Program-made: the position numbers and the translations under genes | Shown: piece by piece, positions 1-16,140 of the stretch | How the letters are laid out: every line of letters begins with the position of its first letter | How positions within the stretch are numbered: the stretch's first letter is position 1 | Notes under the pieces: model-generated | The model's database searches: none | Seen by the model: only the letters and a program-made list of their open reading frames with translations | What the model was told of the DNA's origin: nothing | Origin: a virus | Taxonomy: Duplodnaviria > Heunggongvirae > Uroviricota > Caudoviricetes | DNA length: 45,219 nucleotides | Strand: one strand, 5' to 3' | Virus record (IMG/VR): IMGVR_UViG_646206259_000004

Positions 1-1131
1 TCAAATGACCAGTTTTTTCCATTCCTTACCGCGTGCGTCGTTGTAAATATCGGTCATTTTTTGATTCGAATGGCCCAGCAAAATTTTGGTATCAACCCCC
101 TGCTCTCTGAACAATCGCTCTGATAAAGATCTCTGCTCATGGAAAGAGGGTGGGGTGCCATTAGCACGCCAGTTGTAATCCACAGAATCCCGGGCTTTTT
201 TAAATGCAACGGTTAATGTTGCTGGCTTAACCATCCCGCCGCGCTTAGCTGTCCCTTTCGCGTGATGGTGGTGCAATAGCCACGGACTAAGAACGCAATC
301 GCGGCAGGATGACACCACATCATCTAGGGTGAGATTTAATTTATCGCAACGCAGAGCCAGAGGGATGGCAATCCGGGTTCCTGTTTTTTGCTGTTCGACA
401 TGAAGATAACCATCCCGGATATCCGAAAATTGCATTTTGCAAATATCTGAAAGGCGCTGGCCTGTCATCAGTGCCAGCAGCATACCGCGCTGTAAAAAGT
501 AACCATCCTTTTCCGCTGCGTTATAAATCATCATCCACTCATCAAAAGTCAGTCGCTGTCTTGATATCCGCACCTGCGGTTTTTTTGCCGATTCTGCAGG
601 GTTAAAGCCTGGCGGGACATCGCCCGTTTGCTGAGCTTCCCGGAAAACATCGATCAGTACTTTCCTGAAAATTTGTCCCATTCTGTTATGTCCTCTGGCC
701 TTGTACTCTTCCAGTACTGATACCACATCTTTTACGGTTATGGCATCTAACGGTCTGGTGCCAAAACGTTCATCAAATACCCTGAGAGGGGCCGCTTTCT
801 GTTTCAGCGTGTTGAGTTTGATCTCGCCGTTTTCATATCTTTCCTGTTGAATTTTTCTGTAATTATTCAGAAAAATGGTAACGGTTGATGAACCGCCGGT
901 GTCACTAATAATTTTCTCCTGCAGACTGAGCATTTGTTCCATTTGCTGCCGGGCAAGACGGCTGTTCGCTTCTGCTGCAATAGTTTCTGCCAGTTTCTGG
1001 TCAATACTGCCGAGACCGTGATTTTTGCCTGTTATGGGATGCCTGTAACGCCAGTAAACTTTGTTATTTCTTTTGTCAAAATACGGAGATAATCCCGGAA
1101 CATCGGTTTTATATTTTCGCGGGCGCGCCAT
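1..1131 (-). CDS. int: Tyrosine integrase (lambda Int family)
   Basis: 376 aa ORF at the prophage end; C-terminal LLGHSNQKMTDIY motif typical of the catalytic His/Tyr region of tyrosine recombinases; adjacent overlapping excisionase-like gene. Confidence 0.9.
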   Translation of the reverse strand: MARPRKYKTDVPGLSPYFDKRNNKVYWRYRHPITGKNHGLGSIDQKLAETIAAEANSRLARQQMEQMLSLQEKIISDTGGSSTVTIFLNNYRKIQQERYENGEIKLNTLKQKAAPLRVFDERFGTRPLDAITVKDVVSVLEEYKARGHNRMGQIFRKVLIDVFREAQQTGDVPPGFNPAESAKKPQVRISRQRLTFDEWMMIYNAAEKDGYFLQRGMLLALMTGQRLSDICKMQFSDIRDGYLHVEQQKTGTRIAIPLALRCDKLNLTLDDVVSSCRDCVLSPWLLHHHHAKGTAKRGGMVKPATLTVAFKKARDSVDYNWRANGTPPSFHEQRSLSERLFREQGVDTKILLGHSNQKMTDIYNDARGKEWKKLVI

Positions 1132-1357
1132 CTTCCAGTATCCTCTTCAAAGCAGGGTGATCTGTGGCGATCACCTCCGGCTTGTTTACCATTCCGACAA
1201 AGCGAGCTTGCGGATCCACTCGCCAGCGTCTTCCAACTTTTTTGGGGAGAGGAAATATCATTCCGGCTTTAGCGTATTTACTTAACGTACTCGGAGTAGG
1301 GACCGGTTCACTGAATTCCTCCTTTGCCCACTCAGTGAGCAGAATAAGTCTTGCCAT
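1109..1357 (-). CDS. xis: Excisionase (Xis-like)
   Basis: 82 aa ORF overlapping the int start by 23 nt; pattern LLTEW...IFPLPKKVGRRWRV resembles lambda Xis (EW...IFPPPVKDGREY). Confidence 0.75.
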   Translation of the reverse strand: MARLILLTEWAKEEFSEPVPTPSTLSKYAKAGMIFPLPKKVGRRWRVDPQARFVGMVNKPEVIATDHPALKRILEDGAPAKI

Positions 1358-1421
1358 GAGCGTCGTTCGCTAATCATGGTCGCCGCCACTATAGCTGGTG
1401 GGCAACGACCGGGGTTGAACA

Positions 1422-3893
1422 TTAAAAATCAGCCTGATTTGGGATCAGTTTTTGCCAGATAGCTGAAACGTATTTTGCCTGGTAACGGGCGTCATCAAGT
1501 GCATTATGGCGCTCACCTTCGAATGGAATAGCCGTTCTGGCATCGAAGTCTATGGCTTTCCCCAGCTCAACGATTGTGCGTACATCGCGATCGTTGTAGT
1601 AACGCCACGGGCAGGGGATCCCCTGCCGTTCGTATGAACGGCGCAAAATCGTGTTGTCGAAGTTGGCTCCATTTCCCCAAACCTGAACAAAAAATTCACC
1701 GGAGTTTTCGTCGATAAATTCCCGCAATTGTAACAGTGCATCATCTAACGGGATTTCATCGGTCATAATGGCAGATTGCGCTTCGCGTGATTGCTTAAGC
1801 CACCATTTAATGGTGTCCCGATCAATGACTCCGCCAGCAGTTTCCAGATCGATAGTCTTACTAAATTCCGGTCCCATATCTCCGGTTTGCGGATCGAAAA
1901 ATATTGCACCTATTGAGATGATCGGGGCATCAGGATTTTTTCCCATGGTTTCAAGGTCGATCATTAGATGGTCACACGTCCTGCTGGTGGATGTGATTTC
2001 GTGATGACCGTTCACCTTAATTGGGTGATCTGCCGTCTCGCCAGTTTCATTATCGCTATTGTGATGCTGATTGCCGCCAGTGTTCTCCTTGTGTGGATGT
2101 TCAGCGCCTTCCATTTCCTCCGGATCATCTTCCTGAACTTCAACCTGATACTCTTCATCGAATGTTTCTTGGTATGTTGCGTCGCCCATCACCGCGCCAC
2201 AATCAGGACAGTTGCCGCCGCCGGTCTGACCGCAGGCGGTGCAGGCTTTTTCCACTTCCTGGTGCGCCACTGGTTCAGGCTGTTTCGTTTCTGGCTCGTT
2301 TTGTAACGCATTTGGACTGTTTTGTTCCGCTTTTTGGTAGTTCCGTTCCGATTCATGCTGGTTCTGGCTCACAGAATCGCGGGTCTGGATCCCCTTAATC
2401 CATTTCGGATCATTCGGGTCACTAATCCCTTCAACAAATTCACCACGTGATGCAGCAAGCAACTTATCGGCGTCAGGCTGGCTGATATTGGCTGCCTGCA
2501 TAATTTTGTTTACTTCGTCAGCGGTAACTTTTATCGGCTCTGGTTGTTCTGAATCTTCAGCGGTATCTACATTTTGCGGTAAGCCCGTGTATGTGCCATT
2601 TTTTCGGGCAAAATATTCTTCTTTTGTGATTTCAGTGGCGCCAGCAGCCAGTGCCTTATCCAGACCAGAAAGTTTGTTTGCGCGACCGTATTTTTCTCCG
2701 TCCTTATCTGCGAAGAGGAAATAGAACGGCCCCTCACGCTCTACAGATGGTTCAGCTTCCGGCGCGGTTTCATTTTTTGGGATATCAGATACCTCAGTTT
2801 CCACTGCATCAGTTTGTGTTTCTGATGACTGGAGAACATCAACAGTGCCCAGGTCTGTTTCTTCATTCTCAAACACGCCCTTTGTCGTCAGGTATTCGCA
2901 GATATATTTGTTCAGTGCTACGGGATCTTTGTGAATGTCGATCGGACGCTCACGGACAAGGCCAAAAATAGTTTGGCGGTCGTAGCGAAGGGCATCAGGC
3001 TGTTTGCGCATTGATGCCGAGATACGCTTCCAGTCTTCGCGGTCGTTGTCGATAACTTCTTTTTTTGCCCAGCGATGGATGCTGCCGTCAATGTTTCCGG
3101 CATCCACATCACCAGGCCAGAGAGCGTAGGCCAGTTCGTCATCCAGTGTTTTCCATGTCTGCTTGTATTCGCGATGAATGGCAGCAATGACCGGGCTGAT
3201 TTTTCCTGTTGAATTTTCAGTGTACTGTTGATTGGCTCTGGCGCGGGCGAGATCAACAACAGACGTGTATTTTCCGGTTTCCTTGCGTTCACCTTCGCGA
3301 CGTTTTTTCCAGATGCGCATCTCTGCCTGAATTTCGGGCCATTTAGCACCAGGAATACATTTATGCTTAACCCACCCAATGGCGTGCAACTTAAGCTCCG
3401 GATACATGGCGTTAACTTCTGGCATTTTCATCAACGCTTCAACGATATGTCCGTCGAATGTTGCCATGTCTTCCTGCAACAATTCCTGTGCGCTAATAAC
3501 CATATCAACGGTGATGTTTTCACATGTGTCGAACTTAACCATGACAGCGTTCTGTACTTCAGGGGCCAGCTTGTCAAAAGTGACGTTCATCGGATCGGAT
3601 TCAGTCTCGACCGGAACAAAGGAAGCAGACGCCTCATCCCAGCGGTTTTCCTGCATATATTCAGCATCCCAGGAATCGAGGGCAGGGCGGGGTATACCGG
3701 GTTTATCCTCGCAAACAAGAAATTTATAAGCGCAGTCCTGAGCAGCCGGATAATGTTCCAGGAATTGCCAGTGAAATTTTGCGCGGGCGCGACGTTCATC
3801 ACCGGCTTCAATGGCAGTGGCTACAGCGACGGCACCTTCTTCCTTTATTGCCTGTTCGTCCGGAATGGCGGCGCAAATAAAGACTTTACTCAT
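1422..3893 (-). CDS. Phage exonuclease with C-terminal DEDDh (DnaQ-like) 3'-5' exonuclease domain
   Basis: 823 aa ORF; C-terminal region carries MIDLETMG, GNGANFD and HNALDDA motifs (DEDDh exonuclease signature); central CxxC...CxxC zinc-ribbon-like segment and long acidic linker. Position after xis matches the exo slot of lambdoid prophages. Confidence 0.7.
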   Translation of the reverse strand: MSKVFICAAIPDEQAIKEEGAVAVATAIEAGDERRARAKFHWQFLEHYPAAQDCAYKFLVCEDKPGIPRPALDSWDAEYMQENRWDEASASFVPVETESDPMNVTFDKLAPEVQNAVMVKFDTCENITVDMVISAQELLQEDMATFDGHIVEALMKMPEVNAMYPELKLHAIGWVKHKCIPGAKWPEIQAEMRIWKKRREGERKETGKYTSVVDLARARANQQYTENSTGKISPVIAAIHREYKQTWKTLDDELAYALWPGDVDAGNIDGSIHRWAKKEVIDNDREDWKRISASMRKQPDALRYDRQTIFGLVRERPIDIHKDPVALNKYICEYLTTKGVFENEETDLGTVDVLQSSETQTDAVETEVSDIPKNETAPEAEPSVEREGPFYFLFADKDGEKYGRANKLSGLDKALAAGATEITKEEYFARKNGTYTGLPQNVDTAEDSEQPEPIKVTADEVNKIMQAANISQPDADKLLAASRGEFVEGISDPNDPKWIKGIQTRDSVSQNQHESERNYQKAEQNSPNALQNEPETKQPEPVAHQEVEKACTACGQTGGGNCPDCGAVMGDATYQETFDEEYQVEVQEDDPEEMEGAEHPHKENTGGNQHHNSDNETGETADHPIKVNGHHEITSTSRTCDHLMIDLETMGKNPDAPIISIGAIFFDPQTGDMGPEFSKTIDLETAGGVIDRDTIKWWLKQSREAQSAIMTDEIPLDDALLQLREFIDENSGEFFVQVWGNGANFDNTILRRSYERQGIPCPWRYYNDRDVRTIVELGKAIDFDARTAIPFEGERHNALDDARYQAKYVSAIWQKLIPNQADF

Positions 3894-3985
3894 TTTGTTT
3901 TACCTCATTACAGATTTAAGGGTGAACAAATCCCTGCCATTGCTGGCATATAAGAATGAAATCGGATGTTTATTACGGAACTGTT

Positions 3986-4186
3986 TTAAAGACCTGCCGG
4001 GATTTCGTTATTATCCTGGTGAATAACTTTATCGACCGGGTAACAGTTACCGGGAATTTTCTGTTCGGTTGCTGCAGTCACACACTCCTGCATTGTCCTG
4101 TGAACACTGACTGCAGTATCAACTGGCTCTCCGGAAACAAGAAAAACTGTCAGAACAAGTGCAAATGCTGTATTCATTGCCAGCAT
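3986..4186 (-). CDS. ydfD: YdfD-like small membrane (lysis) protein
   Basis: 66 aa from the internal ATG with AAGGA RBS; hydrophobic N-terminus (AFALVLTVFLVSG) then ...VSVHRTMQEC...GNCYPVDKVIHQDN..., matching my recollection of Qin YdfD; overlaps the dicB stop by 13 nt. Confidence 0.55.
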   Translation of the reverse strand: MLAMNTAFALVLTVFLVSGEPVDTAVSVHRTMQECVTAATEQKIPGNCYPVDKVIHQDNNEIPAGL

Positions 4187-4362
4187 CCTTTTTGTATCGG
4201 ACGTAAACGGGCCAACATTGAAAGAATGCATATTTTATTTAATAGCTCCCGTTCGTGTTTTCTCTTGTTAATGGCATCTTCAGTAAATACAGGGTTACTG
4301 ATAGTGACACCAATTTCAAAACAACCTTCAGACGTATTAACGTTTGGTAATAACGTTTCCAT
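4174..4362 (-). CDS. dicB: Cell-division inhibitor DicB
   Basis: 62 aa ORF METLLPNVNTSEGCFEIGVTISNPVFTEDAINKRK...LNKICI.SMLARLR...KGC.Q, recognised as DicB; lies immediately downstream of DicF as in Qin. The 97 aa ORF in the track is an upstream over-extension. Confidence 0.8.
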   Translation of the reverse strand: METLLPNVNTSEGCFEIGVTISNPVFTEDAINKRKHERELLNKICILSMLARLRPIQKGCWQ

Positions 4363-4531
4363 TATCGCGTCCTCAACAATGAATTTTGTGATGCGGTGCC
4401 TGGTGCTTCCAGGTGACGTTAACCAGTTAACAATTAACGCCGGATACAGAGAATCCACCCATAACACTGTTTTTGGTTTTAACTGTTCCGCGTGCGCTTA
4501 GCCGCATTCACCGCATCACAAAATTCACTTT

Positions 4532-4589
4532 AAAAAGGGCGGCAGAGCAGTCACGGAGTAAAACTGATACCGCCAAACGTCACCAGAAA
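4532..4589 (-). ncRNA. dicF: DicF small RNA
   Basis: Reverse complement reads TTTCTGGTGACGTTTGGCGGTATCAGTTTTACTCCGTGACTGCTCTGCCGCCCTTTTT, recognised as DicF including its GC hairpin and U-run terminator; sits between the ydfC-like gene and dicB. Confidence 0.75.
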
Positions 4590-4927
4590 ATTGATAACAG
4601 AGGGCGTTGCAGCGGGGTTGTCACTTAAGCGTATGGTCAACCTGACAACCCGGTGTCCTCAACGGTGGAAGGAATAACCCCGCCATACTTACCGCCGCGC
4701 CATTTCGCGGATTGCCACAACCGGAAGCGCACGGTCGACGAAAATTTAACGACAGGCTATCTATGAACCAGCTACCTCGCCGTGCGCTTTCGCGTTATGG
4801 TCTGACTTTTCAGGGAAATATCCTTTCAGTAAACTGTCAGTGCCGGATGCTCACCCGTGTCCGGCGCACGCACTCCACCTCACCCGTGGAGAACTCCTTA
4901 ATTACCAACCTTAGCTTCGTTGGTTAG

Positions 4928-5149
4928 CTATTCACGCGGGTATGTAATCATTCTGGCAATGCTTAATGCCGCTGCTTTTTCCAGATTGGTGATATCCTGC
5001 TCCAGAGCGGACAGATTTTCAGCCTGCTTAGCCCTGGCTTCATTGGCCCATTTCAAATCCTGCGCTGCATTAATTTTCTGGCGCATCCACTCATAAAGTT
5101 CATCATTGGTATAGTCTGGCGCGATGATGACGGGTTCTCGTTTCTGCAT
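4928..5149 (-). CDS. ydfC: YdfC-like small protein
   Basis: 73 aa ORF directly upstream of DicF in the same operon orientation; size and position match Qin ydfC. Confidence 0.55.
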   Translation of the reverse strand: MQKREPVIIAPDYTNDELYEWMRQKINAAQDLKWANEARAKQAENLSALEQDITNLEKAAALSIARMITYPRE

Positions 5150-5178
5150 ACTGATTCCTCGCGGTGCTGCTTCGCTTA

Positions 5179-5307
5179 TCAGCCGTTAGATTTTGCCGAG
5201 CTGGAAAGCGCCTGTTTAAACTCACTGAAGCTGAGAGCTTCTTCGCCTTCGGCAAGGCCTTCGAAGTATTCTTCGTAAGCCTTTTCCATGATTGTGTCGA
5301 AATCCAT
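5179..5307 (-). CDS. ydfB: YdfB-like small protein (42 aa)
   Basis: Short ORF found by hand, below the track threshold: MDFDTIMEKAYEEYFEGLAEGEEALSFSEFKQALSSSAKSNG; fills the gap between the ydfA-like and ydfC-like genes. The track ORF 5103..5312 is the wrong frame. Confidence 0.5.
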   Translation of the reverse strand: MDFDTIMEKAYEEYFEGLAEGEEALSFSEFKQALSSSAKSNG

Positions 5308-5308
5308 A

Positions 5309-5464
5309 TCACTCACCTGAGTTTCTTTCCAGCCAGCGACGGGCACCATTTTCGGTTTTAAACGTTTTGCTTTTGGTATACGTCATCGCGGTGAACGTAC
5401 CGTCCTGGTTGGGGAACACGCCACATACCAGAGATTCGCTGTTGCCAAGATCGATAGTATCCAT
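5309..5464 (-). CDS. ydfA: YdfA-like small protein (51 aa)
   Basis: Internal start MDTIDLGNSE... preceded by a GAGG RBS; 51 aa matches the size of Qin YdfA; first gene downstream of the repressor on the minus strand. Confidence 0.5.
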   Translation of the reverse strand: MDTIDLGNSESLVCGVFPNQDGTFTAMTYTKSKTFKTENGARRWLERNSGE

Positions 5465-5756
5465 GCTGACCTCATTTCCCCTTAACGCCGGGGTAGCGGA
5501 ACAAAAACCTGCTGCATAGTTATTAAAGTTGAACCCTGCCGTCATGTTCTTACGCCTCGGGCTGGCTACTTAACCCCTGACCACTGCCTGGTAACTAGAA
5601 GTATTGCCCTGCATTCTGTGGGGTGGGGAGAGGGAATGAATTAAGTTTAGAAAAATGAACTTTTCAGGTCAATGTTTTTTTATCAAAACATTTTAAGCAG
5701 GCAGCTGTTAAGCCATCACCACGATGGCATACAGTTAATCAAATAGATGAGGTCGG

Positions 5757-6395
5757 TTAAATATTTTGTTGAATTTTAAAGCATACGCCCAATATGCAAG
5801 ATAGATCATCCAGCATAATTGAAGGGTAGCGAGGATTCGTGGGGACTAAAAGAATATCCGGCCCTTCTATCTCCAGTTTACGAATGACAGGTGTTGTGGT
5901 CCCTTTGGGTAAGGCAAGGACAATATTTCCTGGTTGTACGGTTCGATCGGGATCAACAAAAACTGTTGAACCATTTGGGATGGAAACTCCCCCACCAGAT
6001 GTTGACATACTGTCACTCTCTAGAACAACTGCAAAGGTATTGGCCGGGATTTCTCCGACAAGCTGCACACAAGAGGTTATTGAGGAATTTTTCATATAAT
6101 CACTCCAGCTTGCTGCCTGCTGAAGTGATAGTAGCGGAACCGTTTTTATCGGCGGTAAAGATAGATCAAGCGAATCACCTGTATTTAACTCTCCTCCATT
6201 AAGAAGCCAATTTTCGTTTACTTTCAATATTTTTGCCAGTGAACTTATGTAACGCGAGGACGGCGCTCCTCCACCGTTCATCCATTGACTTACGGAGCCT
6301 TTTGATGCGCCAGTGGCATTGACAAGGTCTTTGCCTTTCAGGTTTAGCGCATGCATACGTTGGGTTATGCGTTCAGATATTGTTTGCTTGTTCAT
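5757..6395 (-). CDS. CI-like prophage repressor (HTH plus S24 LexA-like peptidase domain)
   Basis: 212 aa; N-terminal HTH (LKGKDLVNATGASKGSVSQWMNG), C-terminal S24 autocleavage module with the SDSMS serine motif and downstream Lys (VIRKLE); divergent from the cro-like gene. Confidence 0.85.
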   Translation of the reverse strand: MNKQTISERITQRMHALNLKGKDLVNATGASKGSVSQWMNGGGAPSSRYISSLAKILKVNENWLLNGGELNTGDSLDLSLPPIKTVPLLSLQQAASWSDYMKNSSITSCVQLVGEIPANTFAVVLESDSMSTSGGGVSIPNGSTVFVDPDRTVQPGNIVLALPKGTTTPVIRKLEIEGPDILLVPTNPRYPSIMLDDLSCILGVCFKIQQNI

Positions 6396-6486
6396 GTTTT
6401 GATTTTAAAACACAGATGGTTTTGTTTCTTGACTTTCTTTGGTTTTGATTATTAAACTTTTGGCGTTCAGTTTTATGGAGCGACTC
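6396..6486. promoter_or_regulatory. Divergent immunity promoter/operator region between the repressor and cro-like gene
   Basis: 91 bp AT-rich spacer with repeated TTTTGATT motifs, a GTTTTAAAAC palindrome and a TTGACT (-35)-like hexamer followed by TATTAA. Confidence 0.45.
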
Positions 6487-6729
6487 ATGAAAAAATCAGA
6501 AGTATTAGGCTATTTTGGCGGAGTTGTTAAAACAGCCGCAGCTCTAGGAACGTCAAAAACCACAGTCAGCATGTGGGGGGAAGAGGTTCCGTGGAAATGG
6601 GCGTTGCTAATTCAGGCAGTCACTGCCGGGGCGCTCAAATATGAGTTACACATACCGACGGTTGTCATTCCCGGTTCTGATCATAATCCGCCTTCTAACC
6701 AAGGGGGGATTCATGAAAATCAAGCATGA
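6487..6729 (+). CDS. Cro-like / YdaS-like small DNA-binding protein
   Basis: Starts MKKSEVLGYFGG... after a GGAG RBS; divergent from the repressor; HTH-like segment (AAALGTSKTTVSMW). C-terminal extent uncertain because it overlaps the next gene. Confidence 0.5.
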   Translation: MKKSEVLGYFGGVVKTAAALGTSKTTVSMWGEEVPWKWALLIQAVTAGALKYELHIPTVVIPGSDHNPPSNQGGIHENQA

Positions 6730-7138
6730 ACACATCCGCATGGCGATGAATGCCTGGGCGCGTCCTGATGGCGAAAAAGTTCCGGCAGCTGGAATAACCC
6801 AGGCTTATTTTGAGTTGGGTATGACGTTTCCTGAACTGTACGACGACAGCCATCCGGAAGCCCTGGCTCGCAATACCCAGAAAATTTTCCGCTGGATAGA
6901 GAAAGACACCCCTGATGCAGTTGAAAAAATTCAGGCGTTGTTACCAGCGATCGAAAAGGCAATGCCACCTTTGCTGGTGGCCAGAATGCGCAGCCACAGT
7001 TCAGCTTATTTTCGGGAGCTGGTGGAGACGCGGGAGCGACTGGTGAGAGACGCTGATGATTTTGTCGCAGTGGCAATCGCCGGTTTCAATCAGATGAACC
7101 GTGGTGGCCCGGCAGGAAATGCTGTGGCAGTACATTGA
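6713..7138 (+). CDS. CII-like / YdaT-like regulator
   Basis: 141 aa from MKIKHEHI... with a strong AAGGGGGG RBS; second gene of the early rightward operon; N-terminus resembles Rac YdaT from memory. Confidence 0.5.
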   Translation: MKIKHEHIRMAMNAWARPDGEKVPAAGITQAYFELGMTFPELYDDSHPEALARNTQKIFRWIEKDTPDAVEKIQALLPAIEKAMPPLLVARMRSHSSAYFRELVETRERLVRDADDFVAVAIAGFNQMNRGGPAGNAVAVH

Positions 7139-7203
7139 CTGACAATAGCCATATCGAATCGCTTCCGGCAACTCGTGAGTAAAAAGATTCGGTATCAGAA
7201 GAG

Positions 7204-8280
7204 GTGAGTATGGCTAACGCCTGGCTCAGATTATGGCATGACATGCCAAATGACCCTAAGTGGCGAACAATTGCCAGGGTGTCAGGGCAGCCAATTGCAA
7301 CAGTGATGGCAGTGTATATCCACCTCCTGGTGAGCGCGTCACGAAATGTCACGCGAGGTCACATTGATGTCACGACAGAAGATTTGGCAAGTGCGCTCGA
7401 CGTGACAGAAGAGGTAATTGATTCAATTTTGCAGACGATGCAGGGGCGGGTACTTGATGGTGATTTAATCACTGGATGGGAAAAACGCCAGGTGCTTAAA
7501 GAGGACAACGGCAATATTTCGCAAACCGCAAAATCTCCTGCAGAGCGCAAGAGGGCGCAGCGAGAGAGGGAAAGAAAGCGGGAACAAAATGGCGATTGTC
7601 ACGGCGCGTCACGAAATGTCACGCACATGTCACGACGAGTCACGACAGATAAAGATACAGATAAAGATACAGATCAAGAAGATCAAAACACTATGGTCCA
7701 TGGCGTAAAAAACGCCACGAACCAGGCAGGGGATGTTCAGACCGTCAATCTTGGTCAGCCAGCAGGCACGACACCGGAAGCCGATTCAGCGTATGCGCTG
7801 AAAGCCGATTCGGGCGCTGTGCAGCAGGTGATGACCGCAAGGCCGGAGCAATCACACCAACTGCAGCAGCCCGAAGCCGATTCCGCCATTCAGCGGGAAG
7901 CCGATCGGGTAGTCCCGGAAAACACCGGGCAGTCTGTGGGACGAGTGGATTATCCGGATGTGTTCGAACAGGTCTGGCGGGAGTACCCGTTGCGTGCTGG
8001 GGCAAACCCGAAGAAATCCGCTTTCAGTGCCTGGAAGGCCAGATTACGCGAGGGGGTGCCACCAGAGGCCATGCTGGATGGCGTGAGGCGTTACGCAAGA
8101 TACTTGGCGGCTACCGGGAAAACGGGAACGGAATTTGTTCAGCGAGCGACGACGTTTTTTGGACCGGACCGGAATTTTGAGAACCCCTGGTTGCTCCCGG
8201 TAAGCGGCACGAACAACCAGCGTTGTGTGAATCATATTTCTGAACCGGATAACGAAATTCCGCCGGGCTTCAGGGGGTAA
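7204..8280 (+). CDS. Replication-initiator-like protein (O-like) containing iteron-like repeats
   Basis: 358 aa ORF in the replication slot; carries internal phased GTCAC(G) repeats and an adjacent A-rich tandem element, as lambda O carries ori. Confidence 0.5.
   Translation: MSMANAWLRLWHDMPNDPKWRTIARVSGQPIATVMAVYIHLLVSASRNVTRGHIDVTTEDLASALDVTEEVIDSILQTMQGRVLDGDLITGWEKRQVLKEDNGNISQTAKSPAERKRAQRERERKREQNGDCHGASRNVTHMSRRVTTDKDTDKDTDQEDQNTMVHGVKNATNQAGDVQTVNLGQPAGTTPEADSAYALKADSGAVQQVMTARPEQSHQLQQPEADSAIQREADRVVPENTGQSVGRVDYPDVFEQVWREYPLRAGANPKKSAFSAWKARLREGVPPEAMLDGVRRYARYLAATGKTGTEFVQRATTFFGPDRNFENPWLLPVSGTNNQRCVNHISEPDNEIPPGFRG
7335..7690. repeat. Iteron-like GTCACG repeats (two clusters, about 10 bp phasing) plus A-rich tandem repeat: putative ori
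   Basis: GTCAC at 7338, 7348, 7358, 7369 and again at 7598, 7608, 7618, 7629, 7639; followed by GATAAAGATACA x2 and an A-rich stretch (7647-7690). Confidence 0.5.
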
Positions 8281-8320
8281 GTGTTAATTTCTGGTCATGA
8301 GGTAATTTTCAGGAGGGCTT

Positions 8321-8743
8321 GTGGCAAAAGTTTTTACACAAGAAGAGCGGGAAAAAATTAAAGGACAGGTTGTTGAACTCGTACGCCAGAGTGGGCGTGA
8401 GACGTTACGGCAACTGGAAGTCAAGACAGGTGCGACAAGATATCTGATGAGCGTTCTCGCAAGAGAGCTGGTTGCCAGCGGCGATGTATGCAACTCTGGT
8501 TACGGGTTATTCCCGTCTGAACAGGCGCGTAAGGACTGGCAAAATGCCCGTAAAAAGCTCTCAAGGGCAAAGCTGAAGAAACCATCTGCGGTTGATCCGG
8601 ACCTTATCTGGTCATTACCTGACGGAGAAATACGTCGCTACGACAGGCGTCAGAACATAATCTGTCGCGAGTGCCGGAAGAGTGAAGTTATGCAGCGCAT
8701 ATTGTCGTTTTATCAGGGTGATGTTCGGTATTTATTGAAGTGA
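8321..8743 (+). CDS. Hypothetical phage protein
   Basis: 140 aa ORF with GTG start 5 nt after an AGGAGG RBS; basic C-terminus with a CRECRK motif; no family recognised. Confidence 0.5.
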   Translation: MAKVFTQEEREKIKGQVVELVRQSGRETLRQLEVKTGATRYLMSVLARELVASGDVCNSGYGLFPSEQARKDWQNARKKLSRAKLKKPSAVDPDLIWSLPDGEIRRYDRRQNIICRECRKSEVMQRILSFYQGDVRYLLK

Positions 8744-8874
8744 CGAGATTAAAGTGCATTAGTTCAGATGCAAATTGACATTTTGTGGCACAGGGTAGAG
8801 CTAGCGTGGTTGTCCGCTTTGTGCCAATAGCGGACATTGCTGGCTCATGGTATGTTAGTTTAAGGAGGCAGGTT

Positions 8875-9897
8875 ATGCCCTGTATTTCGCTGTGGTATAA
8901 TAGTTGCGCAATTGATACAAGGGAGCGTTACATCGTGAAAATTGTTTTCGAGGTTAATGGAAAGAAAGTTCCACTAAAATCTTTAAAATACATAAGCAAA
9001 AAAGATCAACTCGAAGTAATGAAAAACTGGTTCTTTGAAAACTTTGAAGATCCGGCAAATGCTTGTCCGTATGAAAGTAGAGAAGGTGGCTATGCTTACA
9101 TATATGGCGGGCCGTATGATGCGAGCGAAGAACTACAATCCATCTTCGGTCAATATGTTAAATCTGAGTATATTGAGGAATTAGTAGATGAATTACAAAC
9201 ACAATGTTTTGACTGGTCTGGAAACTCAAATAATATAGATGATTGGTACGATGATGATATCTACGACGCTGTAACGTCTTCCGGTAATCCGTATTTAAAA
9301 TTCATTGATAATATCGATAAAATAAAAAAACTTGCAAAAGATAAAACTGAACAACAGCAAAAAAACCACTTGCTTAGTTTGCTCTACACGAATGTTATTA
9401 CAGCTTTGGAAACGCTTTATGTTGAGCTATTCATTAATTCTATAGAGAAAGATGATGTCTACATAGCCAATTGTATAGAAAAAGGTAAGACTGAATTTAA
9501 AGTAAGCAAAGATATTGCTGCGTTGCCTTTCAAGGGTGAACCCATCGAGAAAATTAGGGGAGAGCTAATCAGGTCAATCAAGGAACACTTGATCAGTGCA
9601 AGCTGGCATAGCACTAAAAAGGTAATCGACCGCTATGAAGCTACATTCGATATAAAAGTACAAAAAGACTGTCCGATAGAAGCTATTGAATTGGCAACCC
9701 TCAATCGAAATCACTTAGTGCATCGTGGTGGAAAGGATAAAGAAGGGAACCTCGTAGTGATTACAGACCAGGATCTTGAAACGCTGATTGAAAATGCATC
9801 GAACCTGGCAATTATGCTCTACAACAGTTTAAATGTAGCAACGAATAAAACCACCATTTTGCAACCAGATGACAAACCGTTCATTCATGAATTTTAA
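8875..9897 (+). CDS. Hypothetical protein, gene A of AT-rich cassette (possible HEPN-like C-terminal region)
   Basis: ATG at 8875 six nt after AGGAGG; alternative in-frame GTG at 8935 downstream of an extended -10-like TGGTATAAT (8892-8900). Strongly AT-rich codon usage unlike flanking genes. C-terminal LNRNHLVHRGG fits an Rx4H HEPN-like motif (by eye only). Confidence 0.6.
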   Translation: MPCISLWYNSCAIDTRERYIVKIVFEVNGKKVPLKSLKYISKKDQLEVMKNWFFENFEDPANACPYESREGGYAYIYGGPYDASEELQSIFGQYVKSEYIEELVDELQTQCFDWSGNSNNIDDWYDDDIYDAVTSSGNPYLKFIDNIDKIKKLAKDKTEQQQKNHLLSLLYTNVITALETLYVELFINSIEKDDVYIANCIEKGKTEFKVSKDIAALPFKGEPIEKIRGELIRSIKEHLISASWHSTKKVIDRYEATFDIKVQKDCPIEAIELATLNRNHLVHRGGKDKEGNLVVITDQDLETLIENASNLAIMLYNSLNVATNKTTILQPDDKPFIHEF

Positions 9898-9912
9898 TAG
9901 CGCAGGTCATAC

Positions 9913-10914
9913 ATGGATATTCGCACACGAAAGACAAAATTTTTAGAGTCGTTAGATTCAACTGAAGTGATACGCAAAGCAGTAAGTCTCGCTATAGATT
10001 GCATTATTGATAATCATAATAGTAATGAAGATACCCCCTTAGTTATTACCAGCTATGATGATCTCTGTAGAATCCAGGTGCTAAATTATGTACAGGAGTT
10101 TTGCGAAGCTGCATTCCCTGATATGGATGAATATTACTTTAGTCCTAACATACTTCGCATCAACGGCAAGACTAGTGAAGAAGCTTGTATTAACTTAATT
10201 AAACTCTTAAGAAGTACAAAAGGCATGCTATTCTGGTCCGATGCCCCATCGTGGTTCGCTAGCCTCCCCGACGGATTATTCCATGTTGTTAACATTGATC
10301 AAAAAATCGTTACTCGCGGCCTTAATAAGAAAAACTCTAAGCCGACAATAATCAATAAAGATTACAGTGTAGATACACTACTATCAGAGCTATTTTTGAA
10401 TGGCGCACACATGGAGCAACCCAACGTACACAACGTTTCTGAGGGAAACATGAAGTTCTATGATGAATGCCATGCTGGATTAATCAGACCAATACCCGCT
10501 CCAATAGGCGCGTCATACGATGAAGAGATCACAATTAATTCTCCAGATTGGCAAAAGCTCGCGTGTGTAGCTTTACGCCGCTATCAGTCGAAGGAATGTC
10601 ATGACGGAATGCAATGGGATACAACCGATCATGGTTGGACTGATGTAATCGCGTATCCATTCGTCGAAGAAATACAATCAATGGATAATAGTGGTTATCG
10701 ACAATGTTTAGTTGGGCTGGTCACAATAAACAATTCAAATGCAAATTCTCCGTACCTATCTACCGTTTGGATACATCCATTTTATCGCAGGAGAGGGTTA
10801 TTAAGTAAGTTATGGCCAAAATTACAAGAGTTATATGGAAGTAACTTCGAAATTGAGCGACCTAATGAAAATATGAAAGCATTTCTGAAAAGTGCGAAAC
10901 ACGCAGATTACTAA
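9913..10914 (+). CDS. Hypothetical protein, gene B of AT-rich cassette (possible GNAT-like C-terminal fold)
   Basis: 333 aa ORF 15 nt downstream of gene A, same strand and AT-rich composition; C-terminal VWIHPFYRRRGLLSKLW resembles GNAT motif A (by eye only). Confidence 0.6.
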   Translation: MDIRTRKTKFLESLDSTEVIRKAVSLAIDCIIDNHNSNEDTPLVITSYDDLCRIQVLNYVQEFCEAAFPDMDEYYFSPNILRINGKTSEEACINLIKLLRSTKGMLFWSDAPSWFASLPDGLFHVVNIDQKIVTRGLNKKNSKPTIINKDYSVDTLLSELFLNGAHMEQPNVHNVSEGNMKFYDECHAGLIRPIPAPIGASYDEEITINSPDWQKLACVALRRYQSKECHDGMQWDTTDHGWTDVIAYPFVEEIQSMDNSGYRQCLVGLVTINNSNANSPYLSTVWIHPFYRRRGLLSKLWPKLQELYGSNFEIERPNENMKAFLKSAKHADY

Positions 10915-11230
10915 TTTATGAATCAGTCTGTGGAGTTAGGGTTGGTGTCAACAAGTAGGGTAAGAGCCTCAACGTGATGCTATGCCGACCTGCTCCCTGA
11001 GAATTCACACAGAAGGCTGCTAGCAATGTCTGCAGATCGCTCAAAGCGGACTAGAAGGTTAGCTTGCGTCGGACTTGGCGTATTTAAAGAAGTGCTGGTG
11101 GTGACTGGTTGTTGTGTTCCATTTCTACAGAACAAAATCACAGAAACTATACCCAATAGTTATATTGAATCAATGATGAGACAGCCTCATATTTATCAGA
11201 ACTGGTGTACGTCCAATACAGGAGGTTGTC

Positions 11231-11320
11231 GTGCTGGTTCTCAAATGTGCGCTAGCTATTGCGGCTGTAATGGCAATTTATTGTCTTGCTGTTGTTCTTA
11301 TGGATCGCCTTTCTGATTGA
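11231..11320 (+). CDS. Candidate small hydrophobic peptide (29 aa)
   Basis: GTG start 5 nt after a perfect AGGAGG; VLVLKCALAIAAVMAIYCLAVVLMDRLSD is a single predicted transmembrane helix; overlaps the 3' end of the 96 aa Cys-rich ORF in another frame. Confidence 0.3.
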   Translation: MLVLKCALAIAAVMAIYCLAVVLMDRLSD

Positions 11321-11474
11321 TTTTATATTGGCGAGGTGACGGGAGTTAAGTAGAATTGCTGCGGGTGCTTGAGGCTATCTGCCTCAGGCATGAACACCAA
11401 AGGCAGATAGAGAAAAGCCCCAGTTAATATTACGCGTCCTGCAAGACGCTTAACATTAATCTGAGGCTCAATCT

Positions 11475-11687
11475 ATGAACGGCAAATCTAGGTTAGCCTC
11501 TTACGTGCCGAAAGGCAAGGAGAAGCAGGCTATGAAGCAGCAAAAGGCGATGTTAATCGCCCTGATCGTCATCTGTTTAACCGTCATAGTGACGGCACTG
11601 GTAACGAGGAAAGACCTCTGCGAGGTACGAATCCGAACCGGCCAGACGGAGGTCGCTGTCTTCACAGTTTACGAACCTGAGGAGTAA
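11475..11687 (+). CDS. mok: Mok-like reading frame (N-terminally extended Hok frame)
   Basis: 70 aa ORF containing Hok in frame, as in mokC/hokC loci. Confidence 0.55.
   Translation: MNGKSRLASYVPKGKEKQAMKQQKAMLIALIVICLTVIVTALVTRKDLCEVRIRTGQTEVAVFTVYEPEE
11532..11687 (+). CDS. hok: Hok/Gef family type I toxin
   Basis: 51 aa MKQQKAMLIALIVICLTVIVTALVTRKDLCEVRIRTGQTEVAVFTVYEPEE, a near-match to the Hok/Gef/RelF family; mRNA-like context with upstream inverted repeats and a downstream fold-back/terminator. Confidence 0.85.
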   Translation: MKQQKAMLIALIVICLTVIVTALVTRKDLCEVRIRTGQTEVAVFTVYEPEE

Positions 11688-11755
11688 GAGACCCGGCGAG
11701 GGAGAAATCCCTCGCCACCTCTGATGTGTCAGGCATCCTCAACGCACCCGCACGT

Positions 11756-11782
11756 AACCCGCTTCGGCGGGTTTTGTTTTTT
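11756..11782 (+). terminator. Intrinsic terminator / fbi-like 3' hairpin of the hok mRNA
   Basis: AACCCGCTTCGGCGGGTTTTGTTTTTT: GC stem with short loop followed by a T-run. Confidence 0.6.
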
Positions 11783-11854
11783 CCTGGCATTCTGGTTTAC
11801 AATTCGCACGCCAGCCTGAACAACTGGCACCTGCTGCGCCAGCAGAGACAACCG

Positions 11855-12133
11855 ATGGCGCACGATACCAAATTACACAATTCTGATGATTCTGCCGTCT
11901 TTGCCAGCAGGCACGGGCGGCGTTCCCGCACTTTCAAATCTGACTGGTTCCAGCATCCCCCATGCACTGAAGAACAGGCCGAGTGGCTAATTCAGTGCTA
12001 CCGCAGACACGGATACGAGATTAAGAAAGCCCTCAGCCTCGATTATCGTCACTGGATAATCTCCGTCAGGCTTCCTTACTCCGAACGATCACCGCGTCCG
12101 TCCCGCACATTCCAGCAACGCATCTGGAGGTAA
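11855..12133 (+). CDS. Hypothetical protein (92 aa)
   Basis: ATG downstream of the hok terminator; its stop lies 2 nt before the DUF968 GTG start, suggesting translational coupling; the 135 aa track ORF probably over-extends into the hok 3' UTR. Confidence 0.4.
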   Translation: MAHDTKLHNSDDSAVFASRHGRRSRTFKSDWFQHPPCTEEQAEWLIQCYRRHGYEIKKALSLDYRHWIISVRLPYSERSPRPSRTFQQRIWR

Positions 12134-12134
12134 C

Positions 12135-13181
12135 GTGCGAGTATTACTTCGACCTGTTCTGGTACCGGAACTCGGGCTGGTGATCGTTAAGCCGGGCCGT
12201 GAATCCATGCCGGTATTCCACAATACCCGGGTACTGGTGGAGCCGGAACCGAAAAGCATGCGTAATCTGCCGTCCGGGGTTGTTCCTGCCGTTCGCCAGC
12301 CGCTAGTGGAAGACAAAACATTGCTGCCGTTTTTCAGTAACGCACGGGTGATTCGTGCTGCTGGTGGTGCTGGTGCATTGTCTGACTGGCTGTTGCGCCA
12401 TATTAAATCCTGCCAGTGGCCACACGGCGATTATCATCACAGCGAAACCGTCATTCACCGTTATGGTACCGGCGCAATGGTGTTGTGCTGGCACTGCGAC
12501 AACCAGCTGCGTGACCAGACATCCGAATCACTCGAGCAACTTGCTCATCAAAACCTGTCAGCATGGATGATTGACGTCATACTCCATGCAATGAATGGCT
12601 CGCAGGAACGGGAATTATCGCTGGCTGAATTATCCTGGTGGGCGGTCCGCAATCAGGTGGCGGACGCGCTACCGGAAGCGGTATTACGTCGTTCGCTGGG
12701 GTTGCGTGCGGAAAAAATCCGCTCAATGTACCGTGAAAGCGACATCGTACCGGGAGAGCAGACCGCCACCAGCATACTGAAGCAGCGCACAAAAAATCTT
12801 GCGCCGCTGCCTCACGCCCACCAGCAAAACCCGCCACAGGAAGAGACGGTGGTCAGCATTGCCGTTGATCCTGAGTCTCCGGAATCTTTCATGAAACGAC
12901 CTAAACGTCGCCGCTGGGTTAACGAGAAATACACACGCTGGGTGAAGACACAGCCGTGTGCGTGTTGTGGTAAGCCAGCCGACGATCCCCATCACCTGAT
13001 TGGTCATGGTCAGGGCGGAATGGGGACAAAATCTCACGATATTTTCACGCTACCGCTGTGTCGGGAGCATCACAACGAGCTTCATGCGGATCCTCTGGCG
13101 TTCGAAGAAAAGCATGGTTCTCAGGTTGATTTAATTTTTCGTTTTCTTGATCACGCCTTTGCAACTGGCGTGCTTGGGTAA
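12135..13181 (+). CDS. DUF968-like protein (YdfU-like) with C-terminal HNH-like zinc-binding motif
   Basis: 348 aa; GTG start after GGAGG; C-terminal CACCGKPADDPHHLIGHG...LPLCREHHNELH; size and position upstream of rusA match Qin ydfU. Confidence 0.65.
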   Translation: MRVLLRPVLVPELGLVIVKPGRESMPVFHNTRVLVEPEPKSMRNLPSGVVPAVRQPLVEDKTLLPFFSNARVIRAAGGAGALSDWLLRHIKSCQWPHGDYHHSETVIHRYGTGAMVLCWHCDNQLRDQTSESLEQLAHQNLSAWMIDVILHAMNGSQERELSLAELSWWAVRNQVADALPEAVLRRSLGLRAEKIRSMYRESDIVPGEQTATSILKQRTKNLAPLPHAHQQNPPQEETVVSIAVDPESPESFMKRPKRRRWVNEKYTRWVKTQPCACCGKPADDPHHLIGHGQGGMGTKSHDIFTLPLCREHHNELHADPLAFEEKHGSQVDLIFRFLDHAFATGVLG

Positions 13182-13193
13182 AAGAGGTGACTG

Positions 13194-14386: not shown

Positions 14387-14390
14387 TGTT

Positions 14391-14420
14391 GTTGATTTTT
14401 CCCGAATCTGTGGTAAATTT
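14391..14420 (+). promoter_or_regulatory. Candidate late promoter pR' (Q-dependent)
   Basis: TTGATT (-35-like) and TGgTAAATT (extended -10-like) immediately after Q; exact spacing uncertain. Confidence 0.4.
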
Positions 14421-14468
14421 GCTCTAACGATGGGCGTTTTATGCCTGACGTTAGAAGATTTTTTACAC

Positions 14469-16008: not shown

Positions 16009-16057
16009 AACGGATGAGATTGCAGAATTAATTACGCACCATTATTATTCTGCTCCC

Positions 16058-16133: not shown

Positions 16134-16140
16134 TCACATA

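What the first reader, a model, noticed from the sequence alone, without database searches (positions are those of the whole stretch)
3986..5545. Intact-looking dicB / DicF / ydfABCD cell-division-inhibition module next to a large exonuclease
DicF sRNA (an ftsZ-targeting sRNA) and DicB (a MinC-dependent division inhibitor), plus a YdfD-like lysis peptide, appear complete with plausible start sites. The 42-aa ydfB-like gene is missed by the ORF track. This module is toxic when derepressed, so it is an accessory function controlled by the adjacent CI-like repressor.
Basis: established knowledge. Interest (0 to 1): 0.45.

Follow-up and report, generated by a model that had tools for sequence, protein, structure and literature searches.

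The report
Intact prophage dicBF cell-division-inhibitor operon
This stretch is a complete copy of the well-known prophage dicBF operon (ydfA, ydfB, ydfC, the small RNA DicF, dicB, ydfD), which blocks E. coli cell division when switched on; it is ordinary, present in most E. coli genomes, and this exact sequence has already been shown to cause filamentation.

Summary
On the minus strand of 3986-5545 lie ydfA (51 aa), ydfB (42 aa), ydfC (73 aa), DicF (53 nt), dicB (62 aa) and ydfD (63 aa), all intact.

- DicF is 53/53 identical to E. coli K-12 dicF and scores 76.7 bits on the Rfam model (gathering score 48).
- The block 5502-3127 is 96.7% identical to K-12 Qin.
- The module is 100% identical to E. 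coli UTI89 and many other strains, and at least part of it is found in 4770 of 5426 complete E. coli genomes.
- The UTI89 segment that contains it was a 70.7-fold hit in a published filamentation screen.

The operon occupies the early-left (PL) position of an apparently complete lambdoid prophage beside ompW. The 823-aa exonuclease downstream is the intact form of the K-12 pseudogene ydfE.

The immunity region differs from K-12. The repressor has 212 aa, with a helix-turn-helix and an S24 peptidase domain, and is related to DicA only in its N-terminal part. A P22-Cro-type gene faces it. A PL-like promoter and palindromic operator-like sites flank the repressor gene, so its control of the operon is a reasoned inference, not a shown fact.

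One oddity: the repressor keeps the Ser/Lys dyad but has Ala-Ala where relatives have the Ala-Gly cleavage site.

Verdict: already known, low interest.

The parts
5644..5672 (-). PL-like sigma-70 promoter candidate for the operon (-35 TTGACC at 5672-5667, 17-nt spacer, -10 TAAACT at 5649-5644)
   Evidence: Consensus scan, (9 of 12 matches). Promoter-like hits in the scanned region are no more frequent than in shuffles, so position is the argument: it lies between the repressor gene and ydfA and has the same hexamers as the PR-like site at 6429-6458. Inferred.
5674..5689 (.). Operator-like palindrome GTTTTTTTATCAAAAC immediately upstream of the -35. A weaker copy, GTTTAGAAAAATGAAC, at 5645-5660 overlaps the spacer and the -10.
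   Evidence: The only three matches in 45 kb with at most 1 mismatch to GTTTTN6AAAAC all lie in the two intergenic regions flanking the repressor gene. The pattern was derived from these same sites, so this is supportive only.
5309..5464 (-). ydfA (51 aa, DUF1391)
   Evidence: PF07151 94.5 bits; 49/51 identical to K-12 YdfA; GAGG 6 nt upstream of the ATG (sequence); annotated ydfA in UTI89.
5179..5307 (-). ydfB (42 aa). It starts 1 nt after the ydfA stop.
   Evidence: 42/42 identical to K-12 YdfB; phrog_2061; annotated ydfB in UTI89.
4928..5149 (-). ydfC (73 aa)
   Evidence: 71/72 identical to K-12 YdfC, plus one extra C-terminal Glu; phrog_1744.
4590..4927 (-). Untranslated ydfC-dicF spacer. 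Its last 137 nt (4726-4590) form the 5' part of the 190-nt DicF precursor made by RNase III in K-12.
   Evidence: 97.6% identical to K-12 (330 of 338 columns); the precursor part is 98.5% identical. Processing is described in PMC10448788. No Rfam family matches here.
4537..4589 (-). DicF sRNA (53 nt)
   Evidence: Rfam RF00039 76.7 bits against 48; 53/53 identical to K-12 b1574.
4530..4536 (-). U-run (UUUUUAA) directly after the DicF 3' hairpin: the intrinsic-terminator tail
   Evidence: Read from the sequence; hairpin in the Rfam structure line and in the fold. The simple terminator scan did not flag it.
4174..4362 (-). dicB (62 aa)
   Evidence: PF05358 127.4 bits; NF049927 132.7 bits against cutoff 100; 55/62 identical to K-12, with 4 of the 7 changes in the last 8 residues.
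3986..4177 (-). ydfD (63 aa, DUF1482). Its ATG overlaps the dicB stop (ATGA).
   Evidence: PF07358 84 bits; 58/63 identical to K-12 YdfD.
1422..3893 (-). 823-aa exonuclease, the sixth gene of the operon: the intact form of the K-12 pseudogene ydfE
   Evidence: Its first 767 nt are 96.7% identical to K-12 ydfE up to the IS2 insertion. PF16473 Rv2179c-like 3'-5' exonuclease domain at residues 642-813, 227 bits; phrog_2082.
5757..6395 (-). CI-type repressor (212 aa: N-terminal HTH, C-terminal S24 peptidase)
   Evidence: PF00717 50.5 bits; lambda CI structure 3bdn E 3.8e-10 over residues 13-204. Ser129 and Lys173 are conserved, but Ala94-Ala95 stands in place of Ala-Gly. The DicA model scores only 41.5 bits against cutoff 101, over the N-terminal 71 residues.
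6396..6458 (.). OR-like region: three operator-like sites at 23-bp spacing (6396-6411, 6419-6434 weak, 6442-6457), overlapping a PR-like promoter (-35 TTGACT at 6429-6434, -10 TAAACT at 6453-6458)
   Evidence: Inferred by analogy with lambdoid OR.
6487..6729 (+). Cro-like gene (P22_Cro family), divergent from the repressor gene
   Evidence: PF14549 57.4 bits; annotated as a Cro/CI family regulator in UTI89. The DicC model scores only 31.2 bits against cutoff 130.

Best explanation
This is the canonical dicBF operon (ydfA-ydfB-ydfC-dicF-dicB-ydfD-exonuclease). It is the leftward early operon of an apparently complete lambdoid prophage integrated next to ompW in a B2-type E. coli.

In the lysogen, the neighbouring CI-type repressor is expected to bind palindromic operators over a PL-like promoter and keep the operon nearly silent. 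This step is inferred.

When repression is lost, one polycistronic transcript is made:

- RNase III and RNase E, with the intrinsic terminator at the DicF hairpin, release the 53-nt DicF. With Hfq, DicF pairs with the ftsZ ribosome-binding region and with xylR, pykA and manX mRNAs.
- Read-through transcripts give DicB, which takes MinC to the septum to break up the FtsZ ring. Through MinC, DicB also blocks ManYZ and so blocks DNA entry by lambda-like phages.
- The same transcripts give YdfD, a small membrane protein that lyses cells by inhibiting IspG.

These molecular steps are established for the K-12 copy. They are carried over here by sequence identity: 100% for DicF and 89-100% for the proteins. 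Filamentation has been shown for this exact DNA. The roles of YdfA, YdfB and YdfC remain unknown.
For: - Rfam DicF 76.7 bits; 53/53 identity to K-12 dicF, and 96.7% identity over 2376 nt with identical gene order.
- DicB, YdfA and YdfD family models are above their curated cutoffs. Protein identities to K-12 are 49/51, 42/42, 71/72, 55/62 and 58/63.
- Gene junctions suggest translational coupling: 1-nt gap between ydfA and ydfB, ATGA overlap between dicB and ydfD.
- 100% identity to UTI89. The UTI89 segment containing these genes was a 70.7-fold filamentation hit (PMC6206680).
- Mechanisms in K-12: PMC5069750, PMC10448788, PMC6832061, PMC8835842.
- A PL-like promoter and operator-like palindromes occur only around the repressor gene.
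- Prophage context: int, xis, exonuclease, cI, cro, Q, lysis, head and tail genes.
Against: - Nothing contradicts the gene identities.
- Weak points: the promoter and operators are consensus-level inferences. Promoter-like hits in the scanned region are no more frequent than in shuffles, and the operator pattern was derived from the sites it then finds.
- DicB differs from K-12 at 7 residues, 4 of them in the last 8. The UTI89 screen did not separate dicB from dicF.
- A naive DicF-ftsZ duplex energy is not distinguishable from shuffled DicF (48 of 500 shuffles as good), so the pairing rests on published genetics, not on my computation.
- The repressor lacks the canonical Ala-Gly cleavage site, so the trigger for derepression is unclear.
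Confidence: 0.93

Rival explanations
1. The module is a decaying, non-functional remnant, as in many cryptic prophages. It looks intact but is not expressed or not active.
For: The best-studied copy sits in a defective prophage, K-12 Qin. DicB carries 7 substitutions relative to K-12.
Against: All five ORFs are full length and DicF is 53/53 identical. The non-coding spacers are 97.6-97.7% conserved. The sequence is identical in many strains. The UTI89 segment caused filamentation when expressed. The downstream exonuclease, a pseudogene in K-12, is intact here.
Confidence: 0.03
2. The function selected in the lysogen is not division inhibition. It is superinfection exclusion and metabolic rewiring from low-level expression (DicB-MinC blocking ManYZ; DicF repressing manX, xylR and pykA). 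Division arrest is then a side effect of over-expression.
For: Published for K-12: transient dicBF induction protects against lambda (PMC6832061), and DicF accumulates in stationary phase without full induction. The module is kept in 4770 of 5426 genomes, often in several copies.
Against: This does not exclude the main explanation, because the same molecules do both jobs. None of the operon proteins matches a PADLOC defence model. Its position as the PL operon of a complete-looking prophage suggests a role in lytic development, like lambda kil.
Confidence: 0.25
3. The operon is not controlled by the adjacent repressor. It is driven by an internal or constitutive promoter (for example upstream of dicF or dicB), or silenced mainly by nucleoid proteins.
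For: The operators are only inferred. An older report of a promoter upstream of dicB is mentioned in PMC10448788, and Fis/Hfq silencing is discussed there.
Against: In K-12, primer extension and Northern blots found no internal promoter, and the immunity repressor DicA represses dicBp. Here the palindromes lie on and next to the PL-like promoter, and three more at 23-bp spacing cover the PR-like promoter, the classic lambdoid layout. No minus-strand promoter-like site was found between 4363 and 5643.
Confidence: 0.08

Closest known systems
dicBF operon of the cryptic prophage Qin, E. coli K-12 (ydfA-ydfB-ydfC-dicF-dicB-ydfD-ydfE; b1571-b1577)
   Same: Same genes in the same order and spacing. 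96.7% nucleotide identity from 38 nt upstream of ydfA into ydfE. DicF is identical, and the spacers that hold the RNase III/E processing sites are 97.6-98.5% identical.
   Different: - The upstream control region and the immunity genes are replaced. K-12 has DicA (135 aa, no peptidase domain, relieved by the antirepressor Rem) and DicC.
- Here there is a 212-aa HTH + S24 repressor, a P22-Cro-type protein, and no Rem homologue.
- ydfE is interrupted by IS2 in K-12 but is an intact 823-aa exonuclease here.
- The prophage here looks complete, whereas Qin is a remnant.
The same prophage in E. coli UTI89 (NC_007946.1, from 1,388,571, beside ompW) and other strains such as S88, APEC O1, IHE3034, NU14 and ATCC 11775
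   Same: 100% identity over the module, and 1 mismatch in the first 19,680 bases against UTI89. RefSeq annotates ydfA, ydfB, ydfC, dicB and ydfD. Filamentation screen hit.
   Different: The window diverges from UTI89 in parts of the late region after 19,680, so it comes from a related strain, not necessarily UTI89. In the UTI89 record, RefSeq does not annotate dicF and calls only the C-terminal 113 aa of the repressor.
dicBF modules in sequenced temperate phage records (Escherichia phage Tritos, mEp460_ev081, PPompW prophages of Stx-producing strains)
   Same: The same module at 96-98% identity, in the same early-left position. [quoted passage not shown]
   Different: The immunity regions differ between these phages. 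Only three phage-collection records carry this repressor (98-99% identical), at least one of them a partial genome and none shown to be an induced virion.
Bacteriophage lambda kil in the PL operon
   Same: Analogous position and effect: a small division inhibitor in the early-left operon, expressed on induction. kil genes were hits in the same UTI89 screen.
   Different: No sequence relationship. Kil acts on FtsZ through ZipA (PMC3961180, title only), whereas DicB acts through MinC and DicF acts on ftsZ mRNA. No N-type antiterminator gene is seen at the head of this operon.

Membership tests
DicF sRNA (Rfam RF00039) | Covariance-model score at or above the gathering score, over the full model | tested here: met
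   76.7 bits against 48; model positions 1-52 of 52; no non-standard pairs.
DicF sRNA (Rfam RF00039) | Intact 5' and 3' pairing regions (3' region for ftsZ and pykA, 5' region for xylR) | tested here: met
   53/53 identical to K-12 DicF. The pairing regions are defined in PMC5069750. My own duplex-energy test against the K-12 ftsZ leader did not discriminate: 48 of 500 shuffles were as good.
DicF sRNA (Rfam RF00039) | 3' hairpin followed by a U-run, located between ydfC and dicB inside a polycistronic operon | tested here: met
   The hairpin is followed by UUUUU at 4536-4532. Flanking genes are ydfC (4928-5149) and dicB (4174-4362).
DicF sRNA (Rfam RF00039) | [quoted passage not shown] | not testable with these tools
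   The precursor segment is 98.5% identical to K-12. The processing itself needs Northern blots in rnc and rne mutants.
DicB (Pfam PF05358; NCBIfam NF049927) | Full-length match above the curated cutoffs | tested here: met
   127.4 bits against 27, and 132.7 bits against 100; residues 1-62 matched to model positions 1-62.
DicB (Pfam PF05358; NCBIfam NF049927) | Binds MinC and inhibits division and ManYZ in a MinC-dependent way | not testable with these tools
   55/62 identical to K-12 DicB, with 4 of the 7 changes in the last 8 residues. The UTI89 screen did not separate dicB from dicF.
YdfD lysis protein (Pfam PF07358, DUF1482) | Family model above cutoff, 63-aa length, start overlapping the dicB stop | tested here: met
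   84 bits against 25; 58/63 identical to K-12; ATGA overlap at 4174-4177.
YdfD lysis protein (Pfam PF07358, DUF1482) | Causes lysis by binding IspG | not testable with these tools
   Known only for the K-12 protein (PMC8835842).
YdfA / YdfB / YdfC | Sequence homology to the K-12 proteins, in the same order upstream of dicF | tested here: met
   49/51, 42/42 and 71/72 identities; PF07151 for YdfA; phrog_751, phrog_2061 and phrog_1744, all of unknown function.
DicA repressor (NCBIfam NF007257) | Full-length match above cutoff; 135 aa without a peptidase domain | tested here: not met
   41.5 bits against cutoff 101, over the N-terminal 71 residues only. 37% identity over 65 residues. The protein has 212 aa and an S24 domain.
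Lambda CI / LexA-type self-cleaving repressor (S24) | N-terminal HTH plus C-terminal Peptidase_S24 domain | tested here: met
   PF00717 50.5 bits against 23.3. The HTH_3 hit, 21.5 bits, is just under its cutoff of 23. Lambda CI 3bdn E 3.8e-10 over residues 13-204; 434 and P22 C2 N-terminal domains E about 1e-4.
Lambda CI / LexA-type self-cleaving repressor (S24) | Catalytic Ser-Lys dyad | tested here: met
   Ser129 and Lys173 are invariant columns in alignment A1.
Lambda CI / LexA-type self-cleaving repressor (S24) | Ala-Gly (or Cys-Gly) scissile bond in the linker | tested here: not met
   Ala94-Ala95-Ser96 aligns with the Ala-Gly of lambda CI, mEp235, mEp390, mEp460_4F5 and a Klebsiella phage CI. 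No AG or CG occurs in the linker. Whether the protein still cleaves itself is untested.

The most novel reading that the evidence does not exclude
The repressor guarding this widespread dicBF copy keeps the S24 Ser/Lys dyad but has Ala-Ala instead of the near-universal Ala-Gly scissile bond, and no Rem-type antirepressor is encoded in the window. So derepression of the toxic operon, and prophage induction, in these strains may be uncoupled from RecA-stimulated cleavage. It could instead depend on an unconventional cleavage site or on a different trigger.
Probability: 0.2. Interest if true: 0.3.

Novelty: already known. Interest (0 to 1): 0.1.

Why it matters
It matters little as a discovery. 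The dicBF operon has been studied since the late 1980s, at least part of it is found in about 88% of complete E. coli genomes, and this exact allele has already been shown to cause filamentation.

Its practical value is for annotation:
- dicF is not annotated in the UTI89 RefSeq record.
- ydfB is easily missed because it is so short.
- The repressor gene is called too short in that record.

It also shows the operon in its presumed ancestral setting: an intact lambdoid prophage, with an S24-type repressor and an uninterrupted ydfE-type exonuclease. That is useful context for work done on the degraded K-12 Qin copy.

Tried and rejected
- **DicF-ftsZ duplex energy** (ViennaRNA duplexfold against the K-12 ftsZ leader). 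It gave -38.5 kcal/mol, but 48 of 500 shuffled DicF sequences did as well. Not discriminating, so I rely on published compensatory-mutation genetics instead.
- **Fold of the 212-nt DicF precursor region.** z = -1.44, not significant.
- **Simple terminator scan.** The hairpin and U-run were read from the sequence and the Rfam structure line.
- **Operator pattern GTTTTN6AAAAC.** The total count in the window is not above chance: 3 found against 1.9 expected at up to 1 mismatch, and 21 against 23.8 at up to 2. Only the placement of the best three sites is informative, and the pattern came from those same sites.
- **Rem antirepressor, DicA and DicC homologues.** There is no Rem. DicA matches only through its HTH. 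DicC gives no BLAST match.
- **Plus-strand ORFs overlapping the module** (3956-4501, 4712-4927, 5292-5519). No Pfam match, and not annotated in RefSeq. Rejected as spurious.
- **PADLOC scan of the operon proteins.** Nothing found.
- **Phage records with the same repressor** (vB_EcoS-813R8, vB_EcoS-640R1, phage 204576). The one record I opened is a partial genome, and two of the names appear in a study of phages located in clinical isolates. They are therefore not evidence of inducibility.
- **Literature search on whether LexA-type proteases tolerate Ala at the position after the cut.** No usable source in the held library. From memory only, LexA G85D and lambda CI G112E are non-inducible.
Full report
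**1. What is in the sequence**

Everything in the finding lies on the minus strand. The elements, in operon order:

| Element | Coordinates | Size | Evidence |
|---|---|---|---|
| ydfA | 5309-5464 | 51 aa | PF07151 (DUF1391) 94.5 bits; 49/51 identical to K-12 |
| ydfB | 5179-5307 | 42 aa | 42/42 identical to K-12 |
| ydfC | 4928-5149 | 73 aa | 71/72 identical, plus one extra C-terminal residue |
| DicF | 4537-4589 | 53 nt | Rfam RF00039 76.7 bits against 48; 53/53 identical to K-12 b1574 |
| dicB | 4174-4362 | 62 aa | PF05358 127.4 bits; NF049927 132.7 bits against cutoff 100; 55/62 identical |
| ydfD | 3986-4177 | 63 aa | PF07358 (DUF1482) 84 bits; 58/63 identical |

- The Rfam match covers the whole DicF model at 4537-4588 (E 2.6e-15), and every stem pair is standard.
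- The DicF hairpin is followed directly by UUUUU at 4536-4532.
- ydfB starts one base after the ydfA stop, and the ydfD ATG overlaps the dicB stop (ATGA). Each start codon has a Shine-Dalgarno-like GAGG or AGGA 6-10 nt upstream.
The conserved start is 5464, because homology to K-12 begins only at 5502.
- ydfB shows up in the mechanical ORF list only as a 56-aa ORF.

**2. Comparison with the reference**

- Window 5502-3127 aligns to K-12 Qin (NC_000913.3 1,648,470-1,650,844) at 96.7% over 2376 columns with one gap.
- By segment: ydfA 94.9%, ydfB 99.2%, ydfC 97.7%, ydfC-dicF spacer 97.6%, DicF 100%, dicF-dicB spacer 97.7%, dicB 93.7%, ydfD 96.9%.
- Within the spacer, the 137 nt that form the 5' part of the 190-nt RNase III precursor are 98.5% identical.
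- The first 767 nt of the large downstream gene are 96.7% identical to the K-12 pseudogene ydfE, up to the point where IS2 interrupts it. In K-12 it is counted as the sixth coding sequence of the same operon (PMC10448788).

**3. Prevalence, and the identity of this copy**

- The 1901-bp query 3900-5800 finds matches in 4770 of 5426 complete E. coli genomes. The median is 2 places per genome, with up to 10. In 2291 genomes a single place covers at least 80% of the query.
- The query is 100% identical in UTI89, S88, APEC O1, IHE3034, NU14, ATCC 11775 and others.
- Window 1-19,680 differs from UTI89 by a single base. After that, the late region is mosaic relative to UTI89.
- In UTI89 the element lies beside ompW. 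It carries int, xis, the exonuclease, the dicBF genes, cI, cro, a YdaT-family gene, replication-region genes, hokD, rusA, a Q-type antiterminator, three tRNAs, and lysis, terminase, head and tail genes. It therefore looks like a complete lambdoid prophage, unlike Qin.
- The module also occurs at 96-98% identity in phage records such as Tritos, mEp460_ev081 and the PPompW prophages.

**4. Direct experimental evidence for this allele**

A flow-sorting screen of a UTI89 expression library found region 1,392,009-1,395,131 among its strongest filamentation hits, with 70.7-fold enrichment. That paper lists the region's genes as exoO, dicB, dicF, ydfC, ydfB, ydfA, 'dicA' and 'dicC' (PMC6206680). The region contains UTI89 1,392,470-1,394,370, which is window 3900-5800 at 100% identity. 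The screen did not separate the contributions of dicF and dicB.

**5. How it works**

These steps are established for K-12 and carried over here by identity:

- DicF is cut from the polycistronic transcript by RNase III (giving the 190-nt form) and RNase E (giving the 53-nt form). It accumulates in stationary phase (PMC10448788).
- The 3' region of DicF pairs with the ftsZ ribosome-binding site, as shown by compensatory mutations. Its 5' region pairs with xylR. It also represses pykA and manX (PMC5069750; PMC10448788).
- DicB takes MinC to the septum. Through MinC it also blocks ManYZ, which protects against phages that inject through ManYZ.
- YdfD lyses cells by inhibiting IspG (PMC8835842).
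- YdfA, YdfB and YdfC have no known function. Their PHROG families are all 'unknown function'.

**6. Control**

This is where the copy differs from K-12.

- Homology stops 38 nt upstream of the ydfA ATG, so the K-12 dicBp promoter/operator region, dicA and dicC are not shared.
- The neighbouring gene 5757-6395 encodes a 212-aa protein with an N-terminal HTH and a C-terminal S24 peptidase domain. PF00717 scores 50.5 bits, and the lambda CI structure 3bdn matches residues 13-204 at E 3.8e-10.
- That protein scores only 41.5 bits on the DicA model (cutoff 101), and only over its first 71 residues.
- The divergent gene 6487-6729 belongs to the P22_Cro family.
- No Rem antirepressor homologue is present in the window.

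Promoter and operator candidates:

- Between the repressor gene and ydfA there is a minus-strand promoter-like site: TTGACC, 17 nt, TAAACT, at 5672-5644. Its hexamers nearly match a plus-strand PR-like site in front of cro: TTGACT, 18 nt, TAAACT, at 6429-6458.
- The only three matches in the 45-kb window to GTTTTN6AAAAC with at most one mismatch are 5674-5689, 6396-6411 and 6442-6457. All three lie in the two intergenic regions that flank the repressor gene.
- With a weaker site at 6419-6434, the right-hand set has 23-bp spacing, like lambdoid OR. A weaker left-hand copy at 5645-5660 covers the -10 of the PL-like site.

This layout makes repressor control of the operon the most likely arrangement, but it remains an inference. 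Promoter-like hits in the scanned region and pattern matches in the whole window are no more frequent than in shuffles, and the pattern was derived from the sites themselves.

**7. An unexpected detail**

Five related CI proteins were aligned with this repressor: lambda, mEp235, mEp390, mEp460_4F5 and a Klebsiella phage. In that alignment the repressor keeps the catalytic Ser129 and Lys173, but has Ala94-Ala95-Ser96 where all five show Ala-Gly. A 98%-identical copy from a phage-collection record was aligned too and has the same Ala-Ala. No other Ala-Gly or Cys-Gly is present in the linker.

Whether the protein still cleaves itself is unknown. From memory only, substitutions of that glycine in LexA (G85D) and in lambda CI (G112E) give non-inducible repressors. 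I could not find a source on an alanine at that position.

The three phage-collection records with this repressor give no evidence of inducibility. The one I opened is a partial genome, and two of the names appear in a study of phages located in clinical isolates.

**8. Checks that gave nothing**

See the tried-and-rejected section. In brief: the duplex-energy test and the precursor fold were not significant. The antisense ORFs have no family matches. PADLOC found nothing.

**9. Verdict**

1. The module is the early-left operon of a lambdoid prophage and includes the exonuclease.
2. The repressor is an S24-type CI, not DicA.
3. Repressor control is inferred, not shown.

The system is already known in detail, and this allele has been tested for filamentation. 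Interest is low. The only mildly open point is how a repressor with an Ala-Ala 'cleavage site' is inactivated.

Noticed in passing
window 5757-6395 (minus strand): The CI-type repressor keeps the S24 Ser129/Lys173 dyad but has Ala94-Ala95 where lambda CI and four other phage CI proteins have the Ala-Gly scissile bond. In the UTI89 RefSeq record only a 113-aa C-terminal piece is annotated ('LexA family protein'), although the full 212-aa ORF with its HTH is intact and identical.
   Followed up: partly
window 1422-3893 (minus strand): The 823-aa 'exonuclease' is a composite. Its middle part resembles the non-catalytic region of RecE: NF007259 model positions 271-600, at 278 bits against a cutoff of 1269. 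Its C-terminus is an Rv2179c-like DEDD 3'-5' exonuclease domain (PF16473, 227 bits). It is the uninterrupted form of the K-12 pseudogene ydfE.
   Followed up: partly
window 8785-9897 and 9913-10914 (plus strand): This is an AT-rich gene pair (GC 0.34-0.41, against about 0.5 in the flanks) between the replication-region genes and hokD. The hits are below threshold: HEPN/RES N-terminal domain at 22.1 bits against 27.4, and GNAT acetyltransferase at 19.9 bits against 20.7. The first protein contains an RNHLVH motif. Neither matches a PADLOC model. The pair could be a moron, toxin-antitoxin or defence pair.
   Followed up: partly
window 11363-11537 (plus strand): A hok/sok type I toxin-antitoxin locus: Rfam sok 113.3 bits, with hokD annotated at the matching UTI89 position. 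It occupies the same relative place as hokD in K-12 Qin.
   Followed up: no
window 16058-16304, 16383-16573 and 16851-17060 (plus strand): Three tRNA genes (Ile, Arg, Arg in the UTI89 annotation) lie downstream of the Q antiterminator and a DNA methyltransferase. Two copies of the sRNA STnc100 follow (136 and 161 bits). This resembles the late-promoter region of Stx phages, but no toxin genes are annotated there.
   Followed up: no
window 43644-43842 (plus strand): A full-length match to the Rfam family IS009 (223.8 bits). By its coordinates it falls inside the tail-fibre gene region of the UTI89 annotation.
   Followed up: no
window 6713-7138 (plus strand): A YdaT-toxin-family gene (PF06254, 39.9 bits) sits directly after cro, overlapping its end, in the place where lambda has cII.
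   Followed up: no
window 19681-38000: The window is essentially identical to UTI89 up to 19,680. After that it matches only in blocks, one of them at 97.9%, with gaps between. The late region is therefore mosaic relative to UTI89, and the window comes from a related strain.
   Followed up: no
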